From: a virus
Virus record (IMG/VR): IMGVR_UViG_3300046698_000540
Location: 1-64,000 of that record
DNA: 64,000 bases
Direction: 5' to 3' (one strand)
The notes under the pieces are model-generated. The model did not search any database, was not told the DNA's origin, and saw nothing but the letters and a program-made list of their open reading frames with translations. Positions 3,480 through 32,763 of this stretch are shown piece by piece (position 1 is the stretch's first letter; the number at the start of each line of letters is the position of its first letter). Position numbers and translations under genes: made by a program.

Positions 3480-3568
3480 CAGGGGCCTACCATATCCGGC
3501 TGCTGTTCAGGCCCTGATTCCTCCCGCAGAGCGTCCTCTACAGGGACCGGAAGAATCCTGCTACTCCT

Positions 3569-4360
3569 TCAGCGTACCGCAAGATCCTTATGCATTTGCG
3601 CCATGAACCGAACTTCCTCAAAACCCAGCGCAAGAACTTTTTTCCAATTCTCGCACTCCACATATTTCCGCATGACCTCTTTGAAGGCTGGCTTGCCACT
3701 GAACCACTCTGCTTGGAAATACAAAGGGATCGTTCTTCGCCGGTCCTCTGGGACATTGCGCTCGCACCAGGAGAGAATCGCTTCGAACATCTGCAAGGAT
3801 TCCACGACGAACTTGAGATGCATAGGCACCGAGGATGAAATCCACTTCTTGACCTCCTTCTCTCCATGCGCGGAAATTTTCGCCGCGGCAGTGCCCTCGG
3901 TGAAGTTGAGAAGCTGGCCCGTGGTCTCAAACTTTGGAGACATGGACAGGTACACTCGGTACTTCATCCCGGCCAGGTCGGGGACGAAGATGGCGCCGTT
4001 CGTCTCGATCGTGATGAGCCTTTCTTGATTGTTCCTGTGGGCGGCGTACTCGAAATCTTGCTGAATTCTGTCCTGCTCCCGGACCAAACCAATAATCTCC
4101 ATCAGGTGGTTCGCCTGCAAGGTGGGCTCGCCGCCAGTGAAGCACGCCGGCACCTGGATGGCGTGGCGCGTAATCAGCTCCGCGATCTCTTCGTTGGCCA
4201 TTTCGTAAAAGCGGAATTGAGGCCTGTCGGAAAGCGTGGAAGGGGAATCGCACCATGCGCAGCTCAAATTACAGGTTGCGAAACGAACGAACTGCATGGG
4301 CACTCCGGCGTACTTCCCCTCTCCTTGAAGCGAAAAAAAAGTTTCATTCAATGTCGCCAC
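3569..4360 (-). CDS. queE: 7-carboxy-7-deazaguanine synthase (radical SAM)
   Basis: [26 protein letters not shown] (CxxxCxxC), FTGGEP, IETNG, SPK, QMHK. Confidence 0.93.
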
Positions 4361-5141
4361 TTTTTTCCTCCCGCACGTTCACTGCGGTCGTCACCGTGAT
4401 ATCCTGTCCACTGGCCGTGTCCACACCTACAACCAGGTTTGCATCTTCCACCACAGCCGCAATTTCAGCCAGGCCAGGTGAAATTGCAAGCCTGCCAGAC
4501 ATTCCGCTTTTTTCACGATTCTGCTTCTCCTGGGAATACCTCTCCCACGCTTGCCGATTCCTTTCAAAGCGATCTGCATACTTGAGCTGCGCCGGCGACC
4601 GCGTGTCCACGATGTCTTCCTGAAGAGAAACCATCTCGATGCGGAATTCTCCCGGCCGCCAGGTGTATTTGCCTTCCCAATCATGCTTTTCTTGAAGGAG
4701 CTTTTCAATATCTGGGAACTCCGCGGAATTTGCCGCCTTCAACATCCGGATTTTCTTCGCGTCCGGCTTGGTAATAACGAGCTGCATCCAAGGCCAGTTG
4801 GGATCGTAGACCAGGACGTCGCCGCCCATCGCGGCGCCTGGCCACACGATCGTCTTGGTGTTCTCGAACACGCCGTCGATGAAGCGCCAGTTGCGGCACA
4901 CCATCACGTCCACGCCGGACATGTTTGGTGCCCGCTGGAAATTCTCTGGATGCTTGGTGAATCCACTGCCTAGCGCCAAGGCCAGCGTGTGCTTGAACTT
5001 GTACTCGCCCCTTGCCGGCACGCGCGGCATCCCGGCCAGTTCTTCTGTGTTCGGAGGCCTATAGGGCACCAGCACCTTGCACGTCTCCGCTGGCAGCACC
5101 TCCGAGGCGTACAGCACGGTCATGAATTTCGCGCTGTCCAT
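4344..5141 (-). CDS. hypothetical protein
   Basis: 265-aa ORF coupled to queE; no recognised motif. Confidence 0.7.
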
Positions 5142-5597: not shown

Positions 5598-5868
5598 TGG
5601 GGCTCCCGTCATCTTTCCGGTACTTACCGTCTGACCGCGGCGCCAATACCACCAAATGCTCAAGCCCAATCAGAGTCCTGCCGGGCTGCGGCATGAAATC
5701 GTCGCGCTCCACCACGCACTCGATTGGCCGTACACCGTACAGCTTCATCAATGCGGCGGCCGGGATGAAGTGCTTCTGACCATCTGCCTGGCTGATAACG
5801 GGCCCAGGCCGCACCACGTACTTTTTCTGGAATTTTTTCGTGTCTTCAACCTTGGTTGGCATGTTCAC
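5587..5868 (-). CDS. hypothetical protein
   Basis: ORF with SD GAGGTGA, coupled to queD. Confidence 0.65.
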   Translation of the reverse strand: MNMPTKVEDTKKFQKKYVVRPGPVISQADGQKHFIPAAALMKLYGVRPIECVVERDDFMPQPGRTLIGLEHLVVLAPRSDGKYRKDDGSPNAV

Positions 5869-6326
5869 CTCAAACTATACTGCACCGAAGCCCAGGTGCT
5901 CCCGGTCTCGCTCACAGCCACTTCCAGCACACGCGCCGCGGGATTTTCTTCCGCCACCTTCGCCTGGAGGGTGTCTAGGAGGATTGATCCGAATACCTCG
6001 GCCGTCGTCTGATCGAAGAAATCGTTCAGGTTGTGGTGGTCGTACTGGTCCAGAATCGCCTTGACGTGCGTGAAGTCGATCACCATGCCCTCTTTGTTCA
6101 ACTTATCGGCCACAATCACCACGCGGATCCGGTAAGTGTGGCCATGCGGCTCGTTGCACTTCGACTTGTAGGGCAGCTTCAACTGATGCGCGCAGTCGAT
6201 CGACTCGTTGATGGTCACTGCGTACTTGTAGGGGCTCACTCCTGCCATAGGCAGCCCAGCGTTCAAAATGCTAAGCGGAGGAACACCTTGCCCCGGTTTT
6301 TTTGAGTCAAACGGAATTCCTGCCAT
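5865..6326 (-). CDS. queD: 6-carboxytetrahydropterin synthase
   Basis: CAHQL ... CNEPHGHTY ... GMVIDF ... DHHNLND ... TTAE ... VSET. Confidence 0.93.
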   Translation of the reverse strand: MAGIPFDSKKPGQGVPPLSILNAGLPMAGVSPYKYAVTINESIDCAHQLKLPYKSKCNEPHGHTYRIRVVIVADKLNKEGMVIDFTHVKAILDQYDHHNLNDFFDQTTAEVFGSILLDTLQAKVAEENPAARVLEVAVSETGSTWASVQYSLR

Positions 6327-7168: not shown

Positions 7169-7489
7169 CTAAACCACGTAAGATTCCAAAACGATAGCGC
7201 TCCAGGTATCTCGCTGGTGCTCTTCCGGGATTTCCTCCCGCTTCGCGTCTTCGGGAATGGGCCGGTCAGTGAAGAAAATCTTCCACCGAACCTCCATGCC
7301 GACCGGAGCGAGATACTGGAGGGAACACGCCGAAGCCTTAACCATCTGGTTTATGGCACCGGCGCCTATGGCGACCATGCGAACTATTTTTCCGCGCTGA
7401 ATGTGCTTGGCGATTGACGCCGCCAGGTTCTTGACGTTCGTCGTCCTGGAGATCTGCATCTGTGCGATGTTGCCCTGCTCGACTGCCAT
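7169..7489 (-). CDS. SpoVS-family (Alba-like) protein
   Basis: ISRTTNVKNLAASIA ... AIGAGAINQMVKA ... YLAPVG matches SpoVS. Confidence 0.8.
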   Translation of the reverse strand: MAVEQGNIAQMQISRTTNVKNLAASIAKHIQRGKIVRMVAIGAGAINQMVKASACSLQYLAPVGMEVRWKIFFTDRPIPEDAKREEIPEEHQRDTWSAIVLESYVV

Positions 7490-7497
7490 TGTCGGTC

Positions 7498-8037
7498 CTA
7501 TTCCGCGGATACCTCCCTGGTGGAGACTACCCGACTGATCGTTGCATAATTGGCAGCACAATTGCTGCGTATAGCGTCAATCAGATTATAGACCGATTGC
7601 AGATGGTCTGTGCGGTTCTGGTGGAGCTGAGCATCGGGGTGCATTCTGGCGCGCGCCTTTTTTTCGGTTATCGTGCCTCCGGAAACCGTGGAAAGACGGG
7701 CATCCACGAGCTTATCCACCTGGCGTTTGTGCGCCTCCAAATCGTTCCAAACCAGAGTGGCCTGCTCGTTGGCGTAGGACTGCATGGCCGTCCAGTACCC
7801 TAATTCGTCGGCCAGATCGTCGGAACCCATCGAAGAAAGATTCGCCGGCAAGGTCCTGAACGAGGCAGGATCGTCCTTGTTGACAGGCTTTGGAAACGAA
7901 GGAAACCCATGCTTCAGAACAGAATCATACGCCTTGCGGCCTTCTTCGGTGGTGGGCGCCAGCGGAGGCTCGGGCGCTTGTTTCCTCAGTTCTGGAATTG
8001 GGTTATCCCCAGGCTTAAACGGAACTCTTTTTGCCAC
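7498..8037 (-). CDS. UvsY-like recombination mediator (tentative)
   Basis: Helical protein with TITEKKARARMHPD motif, in the RecA module. GTG start after AGGTGAAC. Confidence 0.45.
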   Translation of the reverse strand: MAKRVPFKPGDNPIPELRKQAPEPPLAPTTEEGRKAYDSVLKHGFPSFPKPVNKDDPASFRTLPANLSSMGSDDLADELGYWTAMQSYANEQATLVWNDLEAHKRQVDKLVDARLSTVSGGTITEKKARARMHPDAQLHQNRTDHLQSVYNLIDAIRSNCAANYATISRVVSTREVSAE

Positions 8038-8045
8038 GTTCACCT

Positions 8046-8939
8046 TCACTTGATCTGTACCAGCTTGGAATATGTGCTGGTAGCGAAGCATGTATTCACC
8101 CAAGGACATTCTTGTGCCCGTTGCACCACTCCCGAGCGGCAAATTCTTTCGGGCAGCCGCTTATCCTTGTGAGCCCGATCAATGTCCACCAGAATCTTTC
8201 GGAACTGGGCCCACTGATCGAGATCCAACCTCAGCACGATCTCCTTCACCAGTTGGGTGTTCTTGCACTCATAAATCAGGTGGCAGGCCTTCAGGTCCAA
8301 TCCCGCCATGTAGACGGTCATCTGGACAGCGTGCTCCGACTGCGGCTCGCTGTGAAGCATCCTCCAGTACTCATCCTTGATGGACTTGATGTCCACCAGA
8401 ACAGGCTCTCCAGCAAACCTCCACTGGCCGCCATTCGACAAAACTTTGAATACGAAACCACCGCTACTCGTGAACTTCGGTGTGCCTTCTTCGTAGTACT
8501 CCAGCTCAACCTTGTTGACCGCCTCAGGGTACACAATGGCATCGGCGTGCCCCAAGACGCCCAACTCTGGATCGTGAACTGGAACCTCCCACCCAACACC
8601 CTTCAACGGATTACAAATTCCCGCTTGAATGAGATAGGCTTGCCAACGGCGATGAACCCATTGGCCGTTGTCCACGATGCGAAAAAATCGCGGGCTGAAA
8701 TCTTCGTGAAGCAACTCTTTCGGCCACTTCTCTATGGGAGCGAACCGCGTGAAAAAAAGCTCCCGCGGACAGATATGCTCCCACCCCTTCTTCCAAGGAA
8801 CCATGGAGGAGGGGTGCAGCCACCCCTCCACTTCCGTGGTCGCCTCGTTGCGCTGAAGCAGCATCCGGTCAACACGAGAAAGAATCGCGTCTCCGGAGGA
8901 TGCCTTGAGCGAATCTATAATCGTTTTTAAGCCTGGCAT
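8046..8939 (-). CDS. Cas4-like PD-(D/E)XK exonuclease
   Basis: HPSS ... ICPR ... GHADAI ... VDIKS ... QMTVYM ... C..CPW...C (1+3 Cys arrangement). Confidence 0.8.
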   Translation of the reverse strand: MPGLKTIIDSLKASSGDAILSRVDRMLLQRNEATTEVEGWLHPSSMVPWKKGWEHICPRELFFTRFAPIEKWPKELLHEDFSPRFFRIVDNGQWVHRRWQAYLIQAGICNPLKGVGWEVPVHDPELGVLGHADAIVYPEAVNKVELEYYEEGTPKFTSSGGFVFKVLSNGGQWRFAGEPVLVDIKSIKDEYWRMLHSEPQSEHAVQMTVYMAGLDLKACHLIYECKNTQLVKEIVLRLDLDQWAQFRKILVDIDRAHKDKRLPERICRSGVVQRAQECPWVNTCFATSTYSKLVQIK

Positions 8940-8945
8940 TTTGGA

Positions 8946-9047
8946 AAGAGCGGCCAAGACAGAGCAGCGGAAATTAGCGATCCACTTCCCAGATCAAACG
9001 TACAGATCTTGCTTCAATGGGGCCGCTGCTCTGTCTTGACCGCTCTT
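8946..9047 (-). CRISPR. permuted single-spacer crRNA-like element 1 (type I-G/I-U-like half repeats)
   Basis: Minus strand: AAGAGCGGTCAAGACAGAGCAGCGG-CCCCATTGAAGC-[36-nt spacer 9010..8975]-ATTT-CCGCTGCTCTGTCTTGGCCGCTCTT. Confidence 0.75.
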
Positions 9048-9053
9048 ACTCCT

Positions 9054-9812
9054 CTAACGCTTCCTACCGGGCGCCTTTTTCTCCCCGCCCTTTGGCTTGC
9101 GGGGCACCAGCCTGGCCTTGCCCGATTTCGTAACCTTCACATCCGCTTCGCCGGTGTGAAGGACATGAACCACCTCCGCGCCGGTGGCTTCCTCCGCCTT
9201 GGGCTGTGCCCCGCGGCCGCGCTTCTTCGGAGGCGCCGGCAACCCCTTCTTGCGCGCCTTTTGTTCCTTGAACTCGCCGCAGGCGCACTCGGGATCAACA
9301 CATTCTTCCGTGTTCACTTCCGTCGTGCCTTCCTTGAACAGGTGAAGGTGCCCGCATGTGCATGCCAAACCCTGCTCCAAAGGCAACTCCTGCTGCAATT
9401 CCTCGATCATGAGACGGCCGCTCCAACCACGCACATCGTCCAGGAATGCGATGATCGCCTTGGCCAGGATGTCTGTCGTGATCTTGAAGGACACTGTGGC
9501 ACCGGAGCCGTCCAACTTCGTCGCCGCGAAACTTTTCACCGAACAGGACGGAATATGCAACAGCGCGTCTTTTTCCGCCGGTGTACCTGGTAGAGGATAA
9601 AACGAAACCCGCGCCGCCTCGATGTCGTGGTCAAAACCATGCGACGTAAATTCCGTCAGGGCGCCGTTTTTCCTGTACAGCTCCCCATTGCCCAATTCTT
9701 TGGCCAGCACTTCGCTCAATGCGCCCTCGATGGGAATCGAGCTGACCAGTTTCTCTCCTGTGCTCCTGAAACCCGTCGTACCTGTGACGGATGCTTCAAA
9801 AATTTCTAACAT
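9054..9812 (-). CDS. hypothetical protein with Cys cluster and basic tail
   Basis: CTCGH ... CVDPECACG; SD GGAG. Confidence 0.7.
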   Translation of the reverse strand: MLEIFEASVTGTTGFRSTGEKLVSSIPIEGALSEVLAKELGNGELYRKNGALTEFTSHGFDHDIEAARVSFYPLPGTPAEKDALLHIPSCSVKSFAATKLDGSGATVSFKITTDILAKAIIAFLDDVRGWSGRLMIEELQQELPLEQGLACTCGHLHLFKEGTTEVNTEECVDPECACGEFKEQKARKKGLPAPPKKRGRGAQPKAEEATGAEVVHVLHTGEADVKVTKSGKARLVPRKPKGGEKKAPGRKR

Positions 9813-12327: not shown

Positions 12328-13542
12328 CTACTCATGTTTTTCCTCCAACACCGGAGCAATCGCTGTGGCAACCACCAGGGAGCCTATCTCTTCCTGCGCT
12401 TTTTTCTGGACGACCGCGCGCAAGACTTCGAACTGATCCTGCTCGTACAGCGCCCCAAAGAACGCTTCCTCCCCTTGAGCCCTGACCTTACCGAAGCTGA
12501 ACCAAGAGCCGGCCTGCACCACAATGCCCCACCGCTTGGCGTAGTCGTAGATCGTAGCGTCGTTGTCGATCGACGCCTCACTGAAATTCACCTGGAAGGA
12601 GCCCATTCGCCGGGGACTGAACACCTTGTTCTTGACCGTCATAAAGTTGAGCCATACCGACTCCGCGGCGGCCTCGTGCGCTTCCTTATCACCGATCATC
12701 GTGAAATCGGAATTGGAAAAGGCCAACTGCAGCTCGATGCTGGCCATGTGCCGAAGCGCGTGGCCGCCAGGAGGCTGCGGAGGCATGGGGTAGCTGCTGT
12801 TGATGACATCGCGGAGCTGATTCAACGCGAAAATGGTGCATAGATTGTCCCACATCTTCGGCTGAGCCTTCCCATCCGGGCCTTCCTCTTTCAGCTTGGG
12901 GTGCGGCTGCTTCACGTTCAACCCAGCTTGCCATGCCCGCGTTCCTCTGGTGACGATTCTCGCCAAGGCGCCGGGGGAAAGCCCATCCGACGCCGATTTT
13001 TCAATCACCTCGGCTGGCGACATGGCAGCAATGGAGTCTATCACGATGATGCTGATCTCTGGACATCGCACCAGGCTGGAAACGTAGTCGATCCCTTCCT
13101 CCCCGAACTCGACCGGAACGTAAAGGAACAGGTCTGGGTCGATGTTCATTTTCTGGCGCCATTCCATCGAATCCGAATGCTCCACATCCACCCATGCCGA
13201 CGCGATCGGATCGTTAGCGCCACAATCGCAGCCTCCCTGCTTCACCAATGTGGTGCACCACTGGCAGAATTTTTGCGCCTCGGCGATTGCTTTGTACGAA
13301 AGGAAGGACTTGCCTGTGGAGGGCTTGCCAAACAGATGATTCAGCCGACCGCGGGGCCAACCTCCGCCAGTCTCCAGATCCAAGGCAAAACAGCCTGTGG
13401 GGATGCGGGGAACCCGCTTGAACATCATGCGGCTGCCCACCATGACCACTTCGGCCTCATACTCCTTGTTGATGCGCGCGGCTACGCGCTCCAACTTGGT
13501 GCGGACAATTCCCGCTTTGGAATTTTTTGACTGTTGCGCCAT
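12328..13542 (-). CDS. recA: RecA/UvsX-like recombinase with Cys4 insertion
   Basis: PTGCFALDLETGGGWPRGR, GKPSTGKS, VIDSIAAM, LNQLR, PGGHAL, VKNKV, GSWFSF. Confidence 0.92.
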   Translation of the reverse strand: MAQQSKNSKAGIVRTKLERVAARINKEYEAEVVMVGSRMMFKRVPRIPTGCFALDLETGGGWPRGRLNHLFGKPSTGKSFLSYKAIAEAQKFCQWCTTLVKQGGCDCGANDPIASAWVDVEHSDSMEWRQKMNIDPDLFLYVPVEFGEEGIDYVSSLVRCPEISIIVIDSIAAMSPAEVIEKSASDGLSPGALARIVTRGTRAWQAGLNVKQPHPKLKEEGPDGKAQPKMWDNLCTIFALNQLRDVINSSYPMPPQPPGGHALRHMASIELQLAFSNSDFTMIGDKEAHEAAAESVWLNFMTVKNKVFSPRRMGSFQVNFSEASIDNDATIYDYAKRWGIVVQAGSWFSFGKVRAQGEEAFFGALYEQDQFEVLRAVVQKKAQEEIGSLVVATAIAPVLEEKHE

Positions 13543-13544
13543 GT

Positions 13545-13745
13545 TCACTCCTGGTAGAATCCAACCTTGCCCACTGAGTTGCCGTTCACGTCGAGGATCT
13601 TCCGATCCTCACCGCTGTTTGCGATATTGTGAAGCCTTGTCCCTCCTTTGGCGACAAGTTGGACGAGTGCACGGCGCACATCAAACGCCGTCTTCATAGC
13701 TTCATTTCCCAACTCAATCTCGATCCGGAACACCGTTTTTGCCAT
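13545..13745 (-). CDS. small phage hypothetical protein
   Basis: FRIEIELGNEAM ... ILDVNGNSVG; SD GGGAG. Confidence 0.6.
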   Translation of the reverse strand: MAKTVFRIEIELGNEAMKTAFDVRRALVQLVAKGGTRLHNIANSGEDRKILDVNGNSVGKVGFYQE

Positions 13746-30717: not shown

Positions 30718-31821
30718 TCAGGCGGCTACAAGTTCCTGCCAGTCGCGCTGGCTCAATTCAATCACCTGGCCGCCGGCGCGTTCCAAATCCACCGAGCGCT
30801 CGTAGGAAACCGACTCGTCATTCGCCACGGCCGTTATCGCTTGCGCAAGGCCCCACTGGGATAAATCTCCCCCCTGAATCAGATTCTTCAGGATCGAGTC
30901 CCCTTCCGTGTCGGTAAACCCGTACTTGGACTGCACCACTTCCTGAACTTCCTGAAGGGATGCGCCACCTTTGGGGATCTGGTTATCCGCCGCGGCGCGC
31001 ATTTTCTCGATGAACTTCTGGAAGTTGGCTTCATCGAAGCTGCCGCGCACCACGTCCACCACCTTGCGCCAGAATGCATTGTCGTCGGCCCTCCGCGTGG
31101 CGTCCGTGAAGAACTCCTCGACGCCTTCCATGTCCCCAACGCCGCGGCCTACATGGCGCCGCTTCAGAGAAGAGTCTGGACGGATCATCCCGTTGTAGCA
31201 AACCAAGCGGTAGAACGCCGGCTCGATCGAGATCTGCGAGTGGCCCACTTCCGAATTGGTGATGACCACGCCGGCCTGCACCACGTCGTTCAGCTTCACG
31301 GCCGCGGTGAGCCTGCTGGTGAACGCCTTGATGAAAAACCGCGTCTCGGTGATCTGAATGGACTCGATCCTCATGCCCTGCGCGTGCTCTCCCATCAGCG
31401 TAGGCACCACCGCTTTGAACAGGTCGTAGTTGTCGAGCGGCCGATACTTGTCGCCAAGGTACGCCCGAGCCTGGCCATCTAGAGTCCTGACCAAGCGCGT
31501 TTCATCCTGGTGTTGGAACCAGTAGTTCACGTTCAGAGGGACCAGCTCCGGACCGTTGTCCATCATGCGCTCGTAGTACTCCCATCGAATTTTGGTGCGC
31601 TCCGCGACCTGTTGGTGCGCCAATCTGCGCATAGGAAAAACACCCTGATCGCCTATGCTGAGAGCATATTTCATTTGGAACCCTTCCGGCGACTGCACCA
31701 CCTGGTAAGGATCCAAAACCTGGACTTGGAGTTTCGAGGACGGAGCCTTGAAATCCCGCTTAGTGTCCGCTTGCCTTTGAACTTCTTTAGCGAAATCGCC
31801 TAATGCCATTCCTTGTTTCAT
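30718..31821 (-). CDS. DUF932-family protein
   Basis: RLVRTLDGQARAYLGDKYRPLDNYD ... GVVITNSEVG ... RLVCYNGMI ... RRHVG. Confidence 0.85.
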   Translation of the reverse strand: MKQGMALGDFAKEVQRQADTKRDFKAPSSKLQVQVLDPYQVVQSPEGFQMKYALSIGDQGVFPMRRLAHQQVAERTKIRWEYYERMMDNGPELVPLNVNYWFQHQDETRLVRTLDGQARAYLGDKYRPLDNYDLFKAVVPTLMGEHAQGMRIESIQITETRFFIKAFTSRLTAAVKLNDVVQAGVVITNSEVGHSQISIEPAFYRLVCYNGMIRPDSSLKRRHVGRGVGDMEGVEEFFTDATRRADDNAFWRKVVDVVRGSFDEANFQKFIEKMRAAADNQIPKGGASLQEVQEVVQSKYGFTDTEGDSILKNLIQGGDLSQWGLAQAITAVANDESVSYERSVDLERAGGQVIELSQRDWQELVAA

Positions 31822-31846
31822 GTTTCTTCTCCATGTTCTGTTCTCT

Positions 31847-31960
31847 TGATTGGGCTTCTTCGACTCATTGAAGCGGAAATTTTGCTTGCTCGCCTATCAA
31901 AACCGGAGCCACAGCCTTGCTTCAATGGGGCCGCTCCAATGAGCCGAAGAAGCCCAACCA
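31847..31960 (-). CRISPR. permuted single-spacer crRNA-like element 2 (type I-G/I-U-like half repeats)
   Basis: Minus strand: TGGTTGGGCTTCTTCGGCTCATTGGAGCGG-CCCCATTGAAGC-[38-nt spacer 31918..31881]-ATTT-CCGCTTCAATGAGTCGAAGAAGCCCAATCA. Confidence 0.75.
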
Positions 31961-32106
31961 TTTTCCTGACCGGAACCGCCAGCCTACCGGGGGCTACCAA
32001 GCCCGAATTTTCCCACAAACGGGGCACCAGGAGTGCCCATCATCGTGAGGCCCTGCCGAAACACGGGGATGCGTAAAAGCGCACACCCACCAAAACCAAA
32101 ACTTTT

Positions 32107-32763
32107 TCATCCTTTCACCCCCGATCTGTCCAGGAGTTCCTGCCGGCCTTCCCGGCGCCGATCCGCCCCGGTCATCGAAATGGTCACCATCCCCTGCTGA
32201 AGAAGGCTGGCAAACCCTTTGCCATAGGTTTCCTGAAGCTGCTCCGTGTTCATGTTCGTGGTCAACACCGTAGCGCGCTTGTAAGTAATTCGGTACCTGA
32301 TGAGGTTGACCAGGTTCTGCTCACTGTACCCGGATCCGCTACCCCGGTACTCCTGGCCGAGATCGTCAACCACCAGCAATCGACGAGTCCGGAAGGCGGC
32401 CGCCAGAGTGATATCGTCGTCGAACATCCAGTCGTGAATGTAGGCTTGCACCACGTCCGGCGCCGAAATATAAAGAACGCGGGCCGTGAAATCCAACACA
32501 CTTTTAGCAAGAGCACACGCCGCGAATGTTTTTCCCACACCGTTGGGGCCTACCAGGAGAAGTCCGACACCCTCGGACACATTGAGAACGATCTGGGAAA
32601 CATAGCCGGCGATCGCGCCGCTGGTGGGAAGCTCCGCGCCCCAATACAACGGAGGAATGCGCGCGTGCCTATACAGCTTCGTGGGATCTTTTGAGCGGTC
32701 CTTCAAATAGGCGGTGCCGTCCTCAGGAGACTGCTTCGGTGTACTCGCCTTCGACTTCGCCAT
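32107..32763 (-). CDS. DnaC/IstB-like AAA+ ATPase (helicase loader)
   Basis: GPNGVGKT, LLVVDDLGQE, TTN. Confidence 0.85.
   Translation of the reverse strand: MAKSKASTPKQSPEDGTAYLKDRSKDPTKLYRHARIPPLYWGAELPTSGAIAGYVSQIVLNVSEGVGLLLVGPNGVGKTFAACALAKSVLDFTARVLYISAPDVVQAYIHDWMFDDDITLAAAFRTRRLLVVDDLGQEYRGSGSGYSEQNLVNLIRYRITYKRATVLTTNMNTEQLQETYGKGFASLLQQGMVTISMTGADRRREGRQELLDRSGVKG

What the first reader, a model, noticed from the sequence alone, without database searches (positions are those of the whole stretch)
31847..31960. Element 2: 38-nt spacer AAGGCTGTGGCTCCGGTTTTGATAGGCGAGCAAGCAAA in a 30-bp stem
Arms 31960-31931 and 31876-31847 have three mismatches, all G-U on the minus RNA. It lies upstream of the DUF932 gene, ~2 kb downstream of the strongest-looking promoters, so early expression is plausible. 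Both spacers begin AAG and share loose CTGT...TTTGAT..GG words, which could be common ancestry, constraint or chance.
Basis: seen in the sequence. Interest (0 to 1): 0.85.

Follow-up and report, generated by a model that had tools for sequence, protein, structure and literature searches.

The report
Inside-out CRISPR guide gene in phage
A peat-soil phage carries a small RNA gene in which the two halves of a bacterial type I-G CRISPR repeat are swapped around a single 38-letter guide and zipped together by a 30-bp stem. This unusual layout probably lets the phage load the host's own CRISPR machine with an RNA of the phage's choosing.

Summary
Arms 31960-31931 and 31876-31847 pair over 30 bp, with 27 Watson-Crick pairs and 3 G-U pairs on the minus RNA, around a 54-nt loop.

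The loop is not random. It reads CCCC-ATTGAAGC, then a 38-nt insert, then ATTT. With the stem base (CCGC/GCGG), these are the 3' and 5' halves of a 36-nt CRISPR repeat. I found that repeat in over 100 arrays next to type I-G cas genes. Element 2 is therefore a circularly permuted single-spacer unit, and element 1 (8946-9047) is its sister.

About 25 further viral contigs carry the same layout. Their stems differ in sequence but stay paired, and their inserts are 36-42 nt (one is 49).

New here: three bacterial I-G loci carry the same permuted unit, namely two Alicyclobacillus species and one Vulcanimicrobiota MAG. Their guides match TTC-flanked sites upstream of cas3g or cas7g. Guide and target co-vary between the two Alicyclobacillus species, so the layout encodes working guides.

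No target of E2 was found, its expression is unresolved, and the host is unknown.

The scan had already reported this layout on other phage DNA (e1-5920094, e1-5920087). I did not find it in the papers I searched.

The parts
31931..31960 (-). 5' arm of element 2 (30 nt). Its last bases, ...GAGCGG, stand in for the 3' strand of the I-G repeat hairpin.
   Evidence: the stem base matches the array repeats
31927..31930 (-). CCCC, the 4-nt linker between the stem base and the predicted Csb2 cut (between 31927 and 31926)
   Evidence: PMC9638904 reports that Csb2 cuts 4 nt 3' of the hairpin base. The cut site here is inferred, not shown.
31919..31926 (-). ATTGAAGC, the 8-nt 5' handle, identical to the 3' end of the I-G repeat family
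31881..31918 (-). 38-nt guide ('spacer'); target unknown
   Evidence: The length falls in the I-G array range, mode 36-37 nt. No match was found.
31877..31880 (-). ATTT, the first four bases of the I-G repeat (5' flank of the hairpin)
31847..31876 (-). 3' arm of element 2 (30 nt). It begins CCGCTT..., standing in for the 5' strand of the repeat hairpin, and ends 26 nt before the DUF932 start codon.
31983..32030 (-). Upstream module shared with element 1: CTGGTGCCCCG (32030-32020), 27 nt, then CCCGGTAGG (31991-31983). It may be a promoter or processing signal, or a remnant of a duplicated cassette.
   Evidence: The 11-mer occurs only at these two places in the 100-kb record.
8946..9047 (-). Element 1, the sister unit: 25-bp stem, CCCC-ATTGAAGC, 36-nt guide (9010-8975), ATTT. 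Its arms and guide are unrelated to those of E2.
32107..32763 (-). Upstream gene: DnaC/IstB-like helicase loader
   Evidence: Pfam PF01695; PHROG 50
30718..31821 (-). Downstream gene: DUF932 protein
   Evidence: Pfam PF06067; PHROG 1362

Best explanation
Element 2 is a phage gene for a crRNA-like RNA aimed at the host's type I-G CRISPR-Cas system, built in a circularly permuted form. Read on the minus strand, it contains the back half of an I-G repeat (stem strand, CCCC, ATTGAAGC), one 38-nt guide, and the front half of the repeat (ATTT, stem strand). The two stem strands pair across the guide. This rebuilds the junction that the Cas5-Cas6 fusion Csb2 recognises in a normal repeat, except that the helix continues for 30 bp where a normal repeat has a small loop.

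Inferred steps:
1. Host Csb2 binds the stem base and cuts between 31927 and 31926.
2. The product has an 8-nt handle, the guide, and a 3' duplex that replaces the usual 3' hairpin.
3. Cas7g and Cas8g then assemble on it.

The phage would thereby fill host Cascade with its own guide. By analogy with the bacterial permuted units found here and with published viral crRNA-like regulators, the favoured use is to sit on a host promoter, of cas or another defence gene, while also competing with host crRNAs. Attack on a rival mobile element is the other possible use. The repeat origin and the architecture are shown. Processing, loading and the target are inferred.
For: 1. The flanks of the 38 nt are identical to a 36-nt repeat of the form [A/G/C]TTTCC-GCGGnn-loop-nnCCGC-GGCCCCATTGAAGC. 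This repeat occurs in over 100 arrays with up to 80 repeats.
2. Genes next to those arrays are Cas4g/Cas1g, Csb2, Cas3g, Cas7g and Cas8g1, all type I-G.
3. The geometry fits published I-G biochemistry: a 36-nt repeat, a cut 4 nt 3' of the stem base, an 8-nt handle, and Csb2 staying on the hairpin (PMC9638904).
4. The guide length of 38 nt (36 in E1) lies in the array spacer range.
5. E1 and E2 share only the repeat-derived parts. Their arms and guides are unrelated, yet both arm pairs are complementary, and every mismatch is G-U on the minus RNA.
6. About 25 more units on 23 viral contigs have the same layout. Stem pairs 1-4 are mostly CCGC/GCGG. Pairs 5-11 use all four Watson-Crick types, with at most one non-pairing unit out of 27 at any position. 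Inserts are 36-42 nt, with one of 49.
7. Bacterial I-G loci hold the same permuted unit with a demonstrable target.
- Alicyclobacillus sendaiensis: TTC PAM, 16 of the first 18 nt match, about 400 nt upstream of cas3g.
- A second Alicyclobacillus species: the guide differs at positions 1, 3 and 14, and its target differs in the same way.
- A Vulcanimicrobiota MAG: TTC PAM, 20 of the first 21 nt match, upstream of cas7g-csb2.
8. No Csb2 or Cas7g match was found in the 100 kb of the phage record held, which is about 80% complete, so the element most likely relies on host proteins.
9. The element is co-oriented with its flanking genes.
Against: 1. No target was found for the E2 or E1 guide. I searched the phage itself, IMG/VR, JGI metagenome contigs (only chance-like hits without extension) and 174 bacterial I-G loci.
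2. Transcription and a discrete processed RNA are not shown.
3. The consensus scan finds no sigma-70 promoter or intrinsic terminator at E2.
4. The host is unknown, and no array spacer among the 2058 I extracted matches this phage.
5. Whether Csb2 accepts a helix without an apical loop is untested. So is whether Cas7g can load a guide whose two ends are held together by 30 bp.
6. The 30-bp stem is the longest in the family and could serve another purpose.
Confidence: 0.65

Rival explanations
1. E2 is an RNA decoy (Racr-like). It binds Csb2, and perhaps Cas7g, and withdraws them from host crRNA maturation. The 38 nt guide nothing and serve only as a linker of the right length.
For: No target was found for either guide. 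The very long stem could trap Csb2 on a product that cannot be stretched along the Cas7 backbone. One viral relative (L005) keeps both flanks and the stem but has only about 8 nt between them. RNA anti-CRISPRs that mimic repeats are established (PMC10651486).
Against: Insert lengths in about 25 independent viral units cluster at 36-42 nt, like real I-G spacers. A decoy does not need that. Bacterial units of the same layout have PAM-flanked targets that co-vary with the guide, so the layout can deliver guides.
Confidence: 0.15
2. E2 is a weapon against rival mobile elements. It is a fully matching guide that makes host I-G Cascade-Cas3 destroy a competing phage or plasmid, as proposed for virus-borne mini-arrays.
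For: The handle and flanks are a perfect, undegenerated copy of the repeat, unlike the degenerate handles of the bacterial regulatory units. The guide is full length. Viral mini-arrays with the normal layout of this same repeat exist on 17 viral contigs. The two units carry different guides.
Against: No full-length protospacer exists in IMG/VR or the JGI metagenome contigs for the patterns searched. The best extension was 28 of 38, and it lacks a TTN PAM. Most spacers never find a match, however, so this is weak evidence.
Confidence: 0.25
3. E2 has nothing to do with CRISPR function. It could be an mRNA-stabilising or processing hairpin, a dead relic of recombination with a host array, or the coding sequence of the 69-aa ORF 31818..32027.
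For: E2 lies inside an operon-like run of genes, 26 nt before a start codon. It lacks its own consensus promoter or terminator. An ORF does span it.
Against: The match to both repeat halves is exact, and it is kept in two units whose arms and guides have fully diverged. Stems co-vary across 27 units. The ORF has no Pfam match and is low-complexity. E1 has no spanning ORF. A relic would not keep 27 Watson-Crick plus 3 G-U pairs.
Confidence: 0.05

Closest known systems
Canonical type I-G CRISPR repeat-spacer unit (pre-crRNA processed by Csb2; PMC9638904)
   Same: The repeat-derived sequences are identical (ATTT, the CCGC/GCGG stem base, CCCC, ATTGAAGC). The 4-nt distance from the stem to the predicted cut is the same. 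The guide length is in range, and the strand logic is the same.
   Different: The repeat halves are swapped around the guide, so one composite hairpin replaces two full repeats. The helix is 30 bp and open-ended, where a normal repeat has 7-9 bp and a small loop. There is no array, leader or cas genes, and the element sits on a phage.
Virus-borne mini-CRISPR arrays (repeat-spacer-repeat; reviewed in PMC11656645, discussed in PMC10120712)
   Same: Both are a single guide, or a few, with host-type repeats on a virus that has no cas genes, and both depend on host Cas proteins. Normal-layout mini-arrays of this very repeat occur on 17 viral contigs.
   Different: Mini-arrays keep direct, complete or degenerate repeats. 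E2 has only half-repeats in inverted relation and needs one cut rather than two.
Viral crRNA-like regulators 'Cracr' and host CreR/CreA (bioRxiv 10.1101/2024.10.29.618823 and 10.1101/2023.03.10.532045)
   Same: These are crRNA-like RNAs outside arrays that load Cas effectors and sit on promoters through PAM-proximal pairing. Phages copy the host device. The bacterial permuted units found here behave this way: TTC PAM, 16-20 matching PAM-proximal nt, upstream of cas genes.
   Different: The reported cases are types V-A, I-B, I-C, I-E and I-F with a psiR-psiS-psiR layout. The Cracr preprint and the mini-array survey I text-searched hold no permuted form, and the Cracr preprint does not mention I-G. 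For E2, no PAM-proximal match to a cas promoter or to a host regulatory guide was found.
RNA anti-CRISPRs (Racr; solitary repeat units; PMC10651486)
   Same: Both are phage-encoded repeat mimics that engage Cas6-type and Cas7 proteins.
   Different: Racrs are single intact repeat look-alikes without a guide. E2 is a split repeat around a guide-length insert.
Phage permuted or split-repeat I-G units reported earlier in this scan (e1-5920094, e1-5920087)
   Same: Same architecture and same repeat family, also on phages without cas genes.
   Different: Those are on other genomes with shorter stems. This phage carries two units 23 kb apart, with the longest stems seen (25 and 30 bp) and a shared upstream module.

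Membership tests
Type I-G CRISPR repeat-spacer unit | 3' part of the repeat: ...GCGG-CCCC-ATTGAAGC | tested here: met
   It is identical in E2, in E1 and in the consensus of over 100 arrays.
Type I-G CRISPR repeat-spacer unit | 5' part of the repeat: [A/G/C]TTT-CCGC... | tested here: met
   ATTT-CCGCTT follows the guide. Many arrays begin ATTTCCGC.
Type I-G CRISPR repeat-spacer unit | Repeat family is linked to I-G cas genes | tested here: met
   Cas4g/Cas1g flanks the arrays in 32 loci, Csb2 in 21 and Cas3g in 12. Cas7g and Cas8g1 are also present, named by NCBIfam.
Type I-G CRISPR repeat-spacer unit | Hairpin base 4 nt from the cut, giving an 8-nt handle | tested here: met
   The geometry is read from the sequence and compared with PMC9638904. 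The cut itself is not shown.
Type I-G CRISPR repeat-spacer unit | Spacer length typical of the family | tested here: met
   E2 has 38 nt. Of 2058 array spacers, 1740 are 35-38 nt.
Type I-G CRISPR repeat-spacer unit | Two or more complete direct repeats (an array) | tested here: not met
   Only half-repeats in inverted relation are present, with no direct repeat nearby.
Type I-G CRISPR repeat-spacer unit | Adjacent cas genes | tested here: not met
   The 100-kb record has no Csb2 or Cas7g. The only related gene is a phage Cas4-domain exonuclease next to E1.
Type I-G CRISPR repeat-spacer unit | Protospacer with a TTN PAM | tested here: inconclusive
   None was found in the phage, IMG/VR, the JGI metagenome contigs or 174 I-G loci.
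Type I-G CRISPR repeat-spacer unit | Processing by Csb2 and loading into Cascade | not testable with these tools
   This needs biochemistry or small-RNA sequencing.
Viral crRNA-like regulators (Cracr) / CreR-type RNAs | At least 9 PAM-proximal nt match a host cas or toxin promoter, or a host regulatory guide | tested here: inconclusive
   Nothing exceeded the shuffled controls in 174 sampled I-G loci. The true host is unknown.
Viral crRNA-like regulators (Cracr) / CreR-type RNAs | psiR-psiS-psiR direct layout | tested here: not met
   E2 has the permuted layout.
RNA anti-CRISPR (Racr, solitary repeat unit) | One intact repeat look-alike without a guide | tested here: not met
   The repeat is split, and a 38-nt insert lies between the halves.
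Permuted type I-G unit (family defined in this scan) | arm / CCCCATTGAAGC / 36-42 nt / nTTT / complementary arm beginning CCGC | tested here: met
   E2 fits every part. 25 viral units (E1 and E2 among them) and 2 of the 3 bacterial units were tabulated with covariation.

The most novel reading that the evidence does not exclude
The permuted unit is the native way in which type I-G systems encode regulatory guides. It packs promoter, half repeat, guide, half repeat and, in many copies, a U-tract into one hairpin that serves as Csb2 site and terminator at once. Phages such as this one have copied the design to make host Cascade silence host defence promoters. E1 and E2 would then be two such silencers aimed at different host loci.
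Probability: 0.3. Interest if true: 0.85.

Novelty: new variant of a known kind. Interest (0 to 1): 0.8.

Why it matters
CRISPR guides are normally cut out from between two complete direct repeats. Here one composite hairpin built from two half-repeats appears to do the job, on phages and in bacterial I-G loci.

- **Reach of viral mimics.** If confirmed, this extends viral crRNA mimicry to type I-G, the least studied type I system, which is common in soil phyla.
- **Missed by searches.** It shows a layout that repeat-based searches for mini-arrays and solitary repeats would mostly miss or record as a lone partial repeat.
- **A testable circuit.** It gives an autoregulatory circuit in a cultured strain, Alicyclobacillus sendaiensis NBRC 100866.
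- **Guide design.** It suggests a very compact single-cut guide cassette for I-G genome tools.

For this phage, it points to a host that carries a type I-G system.

Tried and rejected
- **Rfam.** No family matched at gathering thresholds over the window, and only chance-level hits appeared around E1 and E2 at E up to 10.
- **Cultured phages.** blastn of the E2 region against cultured phages found no match.
- **Relatives through the DUF932 protein.** None was confirmed in IMG/VR, so conservation of E2 in syntenic relatives could not be examined.
- **Protospacer searches.**
  - The first 29 nt of the E2 guide, with every sixth base free, gave 0 hits in IMG/VR.
  - The 23-nt version gave 3 hits in the JGI metagenome contigs. 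They extend to only 23-28 of 38 and lack a TTN PAM, so I treat them as chance.
  - PAM plus 16-17 nt seeds for E2 and E1 in IMG/VR gave 26 and 4 hits, none extending.
- **Self-targeting.** No site in the phage record scored above shuffled guides.
- **Host I-G loci.** E1, E2 and the other viral guides were scanned against 174 bacterial I-G loci, and nothing exceeded shuffled controls.
- **Array spacers against the phage.** The 2058 spacers I extracted gave only chance matches of 18 nt or less, so no host could be assigned.
- **Sequencing runs.** Three peat RNA-library runs hold scattered short contigs of this region. None of the listed pieces spans E2, and contigs cannot show RNA ends or strand, so there is no verdict on expression.
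- **Promoters and terminators.** The consensus scan found nothing at E2, and only one weak plus-strand terminator-like site near E1.
- **More bacterial units.** None turned up in 20 Acidobacteriota I-G loci.
- **Sequence search in papers.** A full-text search for the repeat sequence returned only unrelated primer hits.
- **Ideas considered and dropped.** I set these aside because the flanks match the I-G repeat exactly:
  - retron msr-msd;
  - integron attC site;
  - single-strand promoter of a conjugative leading region;
  - small self-cleaving ribozyme.

Full report
**The observation**

The arms are 31847-31876 and 31931-31960, each 30 nt, with 54 nt between them. On the minus-strand RNA the stem has 27 Watson-Crick and 3 G-U pairs, which on the plus strand would be C-A mismatches. 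The minus RNA folds at -67 kcal/mol (z = -5.7, no shuffle as good), against -55 kcal/mol for the plus RNA. In 64 kb only one other inverted repeat has this size and loop length: element 1 at 8946-9047. The full 100-kb virus record holds no third copy.

**What the loop contains**

On the minus strand, E1 and E2 share no arm sequence and no guide sequence. They share exactly the inner parts...GCGG-CCCC-ATTGAAGC before the variable 36 or 38 nt, and ATTT-CCGC... after it.

Over 100 of the loci held regular arrays of up to 80 units with a period of 71-76 nt. At least one hit, L056, is a repeat inside a protein-coding gene rather than an array. The hosts include Planctomycetota, Acidobacteriota, Verrucomicrobiota, Myxococcota, Chloroflexota, Nitrospirota and some archaea.

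The per-array consensus is a 36-nt repeat:
- four bases such as ATTT or GTTT;
- a 7-9 bp hairpin whose base is CCGC/GCGG and whose upper part differs from array to array;
- then CCCC-ATTGAAGC.

Proteins encoded beside these arrays cluster into a few families. NCBIfam names them Cas4g/Cas1g, Csb2, Cas3g, the Cas3g extension protein, Cas7g, Cas8g1 and Cas2. The repeat is therefore a type I-G repeat.

The published I-G biochemistry fits the geometry. It reports a 36-nt repeat and a Csb2 cut 4 nt 3' of the hairpin base that leaves an 8-nt 5' handle. It also reports that Csb2 stays on the hairpin and that the PAM is TTN (PMC9638904). In E2 the four C's lie between the stem base and ATTGAAGC.

**The architecture**

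A normal unit reads: repeat (ATTT, arm, loop, arm', CCCC-ATTGAAGC), spacer, repeat. E2 reads: arm', CCCC-ATTGAAGC, 38 nt, ATTT, arm. It holds the stretch that would lie between the loops of two successive repeats. The two stem strands now pair across the guide, and the stem is lengthened to 30 bp. The local junction that Csb2 would see is unchanged: the stem base, ATTT on one side and CCCC-ATTGAAGC on the other. One cut would yield handle, guide and a 3' duplex in place of the 3' hairpin. That cut is inferred, not shown.

**The family**

I searched IMG/VR for the handle, then 25-55 nt, then TTTCC, a pattern that places no condition on the start of the guide. It returned 49 loci. After setting aside normal mini-arrays, about 25 units on 23 viral contigs have the permuted layout.
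- Stems are 10-23 bp, so those of E1 and E2 are the longest.
- Inserts are 36-42 nt, with one of 49.
- Array spacers peak at 36-37 nt.

I tabulated 27 units from the loop outward. Pairs 1-2 are always or almost always C-G, and pairs 3-4 are mostly G-C and C-G. Pairs 5-11 use all four Watson-Crick types, with 23-27 of 27 Watson-Crick, up to 3 G-U, and at most one non-pairing unit at any position. Several units are followed by a T-run and preceded by a -10-like box (read), so some look like self-contained small RNA genes. One contig has two units 100 nt apart (L161). One variant has only about 8 nt between the flanks (L005).

Scanning the bacterial loci for handles outside arrays gave a permuted unit in a Vulcanimicrobiota MAG (L013) and one in Alicyclobacillus sendaiensis NBRC 100866 (L128).

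In L013:
- The unit ends in a T-run.
- Directly after it lies a TTC-flanked site that matches 20 of the first 21 guide positions.
- The site is about 370 nt upstream of cas7g-csb2.

In A. sendaiensis:
- The guide matches a TTC-flanked site on the other strand in 16 of its first 18 positions.
- The mismatches are at position 6, which is flipped out in type I complexes (PMC9638904), and at position 8.
- The site sits beside a TTGACT box, about 400 nt upstream of cas3g.

A second Alicyclobacillus genome (G407, L244) has the orthologous unit behind a TTGACA-17-TAGCAT promoter. Its guide differs at positions 1, 3 and 14, and its TTC-flanked target upstream of cas3g differs at the same three positions. 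The mismatches at positions 6 and 8 are kept. This guide-target covariation is the strongest evidence that the permuted layout yields functional I-G guides. These bacterial units behave like CreR-type autoregulators. No further units were found in 20 acidobacterial I-G loci, so the device is occasional, not universal.

**What E2 does**

The held record has no match to Csb2 or Cas7g, so the element most likely depends on host proteins; the record is about 80% complete. E2 lies in the replication module, on the same strand as its neighbours. These are the DnaC-like loader upstream, DUF932 downstream, and a DnaB-like helicase further on.

I found no target anywhere I could search. The choice between host-promoter silencing, attack on a rival element, and pure competition for Cas proteins therefore stays open. 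I favour a guide over a pure decoy, because insert length is conserved and the bacterial units have targets. Silencing and interference I rate about equal; my best-explanation statement leans to silencing only by analogy with the bacterial units. The perfect, undegenerated handle and full-length guide of E2 lean towards interference. The bacterial precedent and the published viral regulators lean towards silencing (bioRxiv 10.1101/2024.10.29.618823).

**The ORF test**

The 69-aa ORF 31818..32027 has no Pfam match and an Arg/Gly/Pro-rich product. E1 keeps the same conserved nucleotides with no ORF across it. Those nucleotides equal a CRISPR repeat, so coding does not explain the element.

**Expression and habitat**

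The stretch is present in at least 17 peat-metagenome DNA runs. Three RNA-library runs hold short scattered contigs of the region. None of the listed pieces spans E2, and contigs cannot show RNA ends. Expression is unresolved.

**Known or new**

The papers I could search describe RNA anti-CRISPRs (PMC10651486) and mini-arrays and repeat-like regulators (PMC10120712). The latter lists I-G loci with 46% repeat-like sequences but only 4% mini-arrays. They also describe CreR (bioRxiv 10.1101/2023.03.10.532045) and viral Cracr RNAs for types V-A, I-B, I-C, I-E and I-F. I text-searched the Cracr preprint and the mini-array survey for a permuted or inverted layout and found none. The Cracr preprint does not mention I-G; the survey mentions it once, in a table.

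Earlier reports of this scan (e1-5920094, e1-5920087) describe the same layout on other phages. My analysis was done before I read them, and it agrees with them. I class E2 as a new variant of a known kind: a viral crRNA-like RNA with a new architecture, aimed at a new subtype.

Noticed in passing
L128 about 3480-3570 (minus strand) with target near 4310; L244 about 1500-1590 with target near 1293; L013 3438-3515 with target at 3522: Bacterial type I-G loci (Alicyclobacillus sendaiensis NBRC 100866, a second Alicyclobacillus species, and a Vulcanimicrobiota MAG) carry permuted units. Their guides match TTC-flanked sites upstream of cas3g or cas7g. Guide and target co-vary between the two Alicyclobacillus species.
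   Followed up: yes
window 32030-31983 and 9110-9063 (minus strand): Both elements are preceded by the same two boxes, CTGGTGCCCCG and CCCGGTAGG, exactly 27 nt apart. Box 2 ends 15 nt (E1) or 22 nt (E2) before the 5' arm. The 11-mer occurs nowhere else in the 100-kb record. In E1 the boxes lie in the last 18 codons of the 252-aa ORF 9054..9812; in E2 they lie in non-coding DNA. They could be a promoter or processing signal, or the trace of a duplicated cassette.
   Followed up: partly
L009 about 5960-6100 (minus strand of the locus): This viral permuted unit sits directly after a tRNA gene. About 30 nt of its 41-nt guide is a 93% copy, in the same sense, of the ribosome-binding site and start of the next gene 50 nt downstream. 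The PAM-proximal part does not match. This is unexplained.
   Followed up: partly
L161, two handles 100 nt apart (minus-strand reading positions 5028 and 5128; guides at plus-strand 4501-4538 and 4402-4438): Two permuted units stand in tandem on one viral contig, each with its own arms and guide.
   Followed up: no
L007 2110-2290: A viral mini-array in the normal layout has three repeats that keep the flanks (TTCC ... GGCCCCATTGAAG). Each repeat has a different short hairpin capped by a GAGA, GTAA or TTCG tetraloop.
   Followed up: partly
L005 about 1160-1225: This variant has both repeat flanks and a 16-bp stem but only about 8 nt between them, followed by a T-run. It may be a guide-less decoy or a terminator form.
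   Followed up: no
window 8046-8957 (minus strand): The gene right after element 1 is a Cas4-domain PD-(D/E)XK exonuclease with a C-terminal Cys cluster (PHROGs 1706, 2506 and 1990). It had no Pfam or NCBIfam hit at the thresholds used. It is probably part of the recombination module, along with the RecA-like gene at 12328-13548.
   Followed up: partly
window about 32107-31985 (minus strand): A 40-codon ORF starts at the stop of the DnaC-like gene. Its product has a Trp/Phe-rich N-terminus and a CPVCG motif. It overlaps upstream box 1 in another frame.
   Followed up: no
L226, L227, L228 (Acidobacteriota I-G arrays): The repeats of these arrays have the stem base CCGCTT/AAGCGG, like the inner stem of E2 (CCGCTT/GAGCGG). 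Most arrays have CCGCGG instead. Together with the peat habitat, this is a weak hint that the host may be an acidobacterium.
   Followed up: no
L003, L004, L008 and window E1, E2: Several viral units have guides that begin AAG, and some continue AAGCAAGCAA. All came from a search that included AAG, so the enrichment is uncertain. In arrays, AAG starts 1.8% of spacers.
   Followed up: partly
window 5865-6326, 7169-7561: These are a QueD-type 6-pyruvoyl-tetrahydropterin synthase gene and a SpoVS-like gene in the early region.
   Followed up: no
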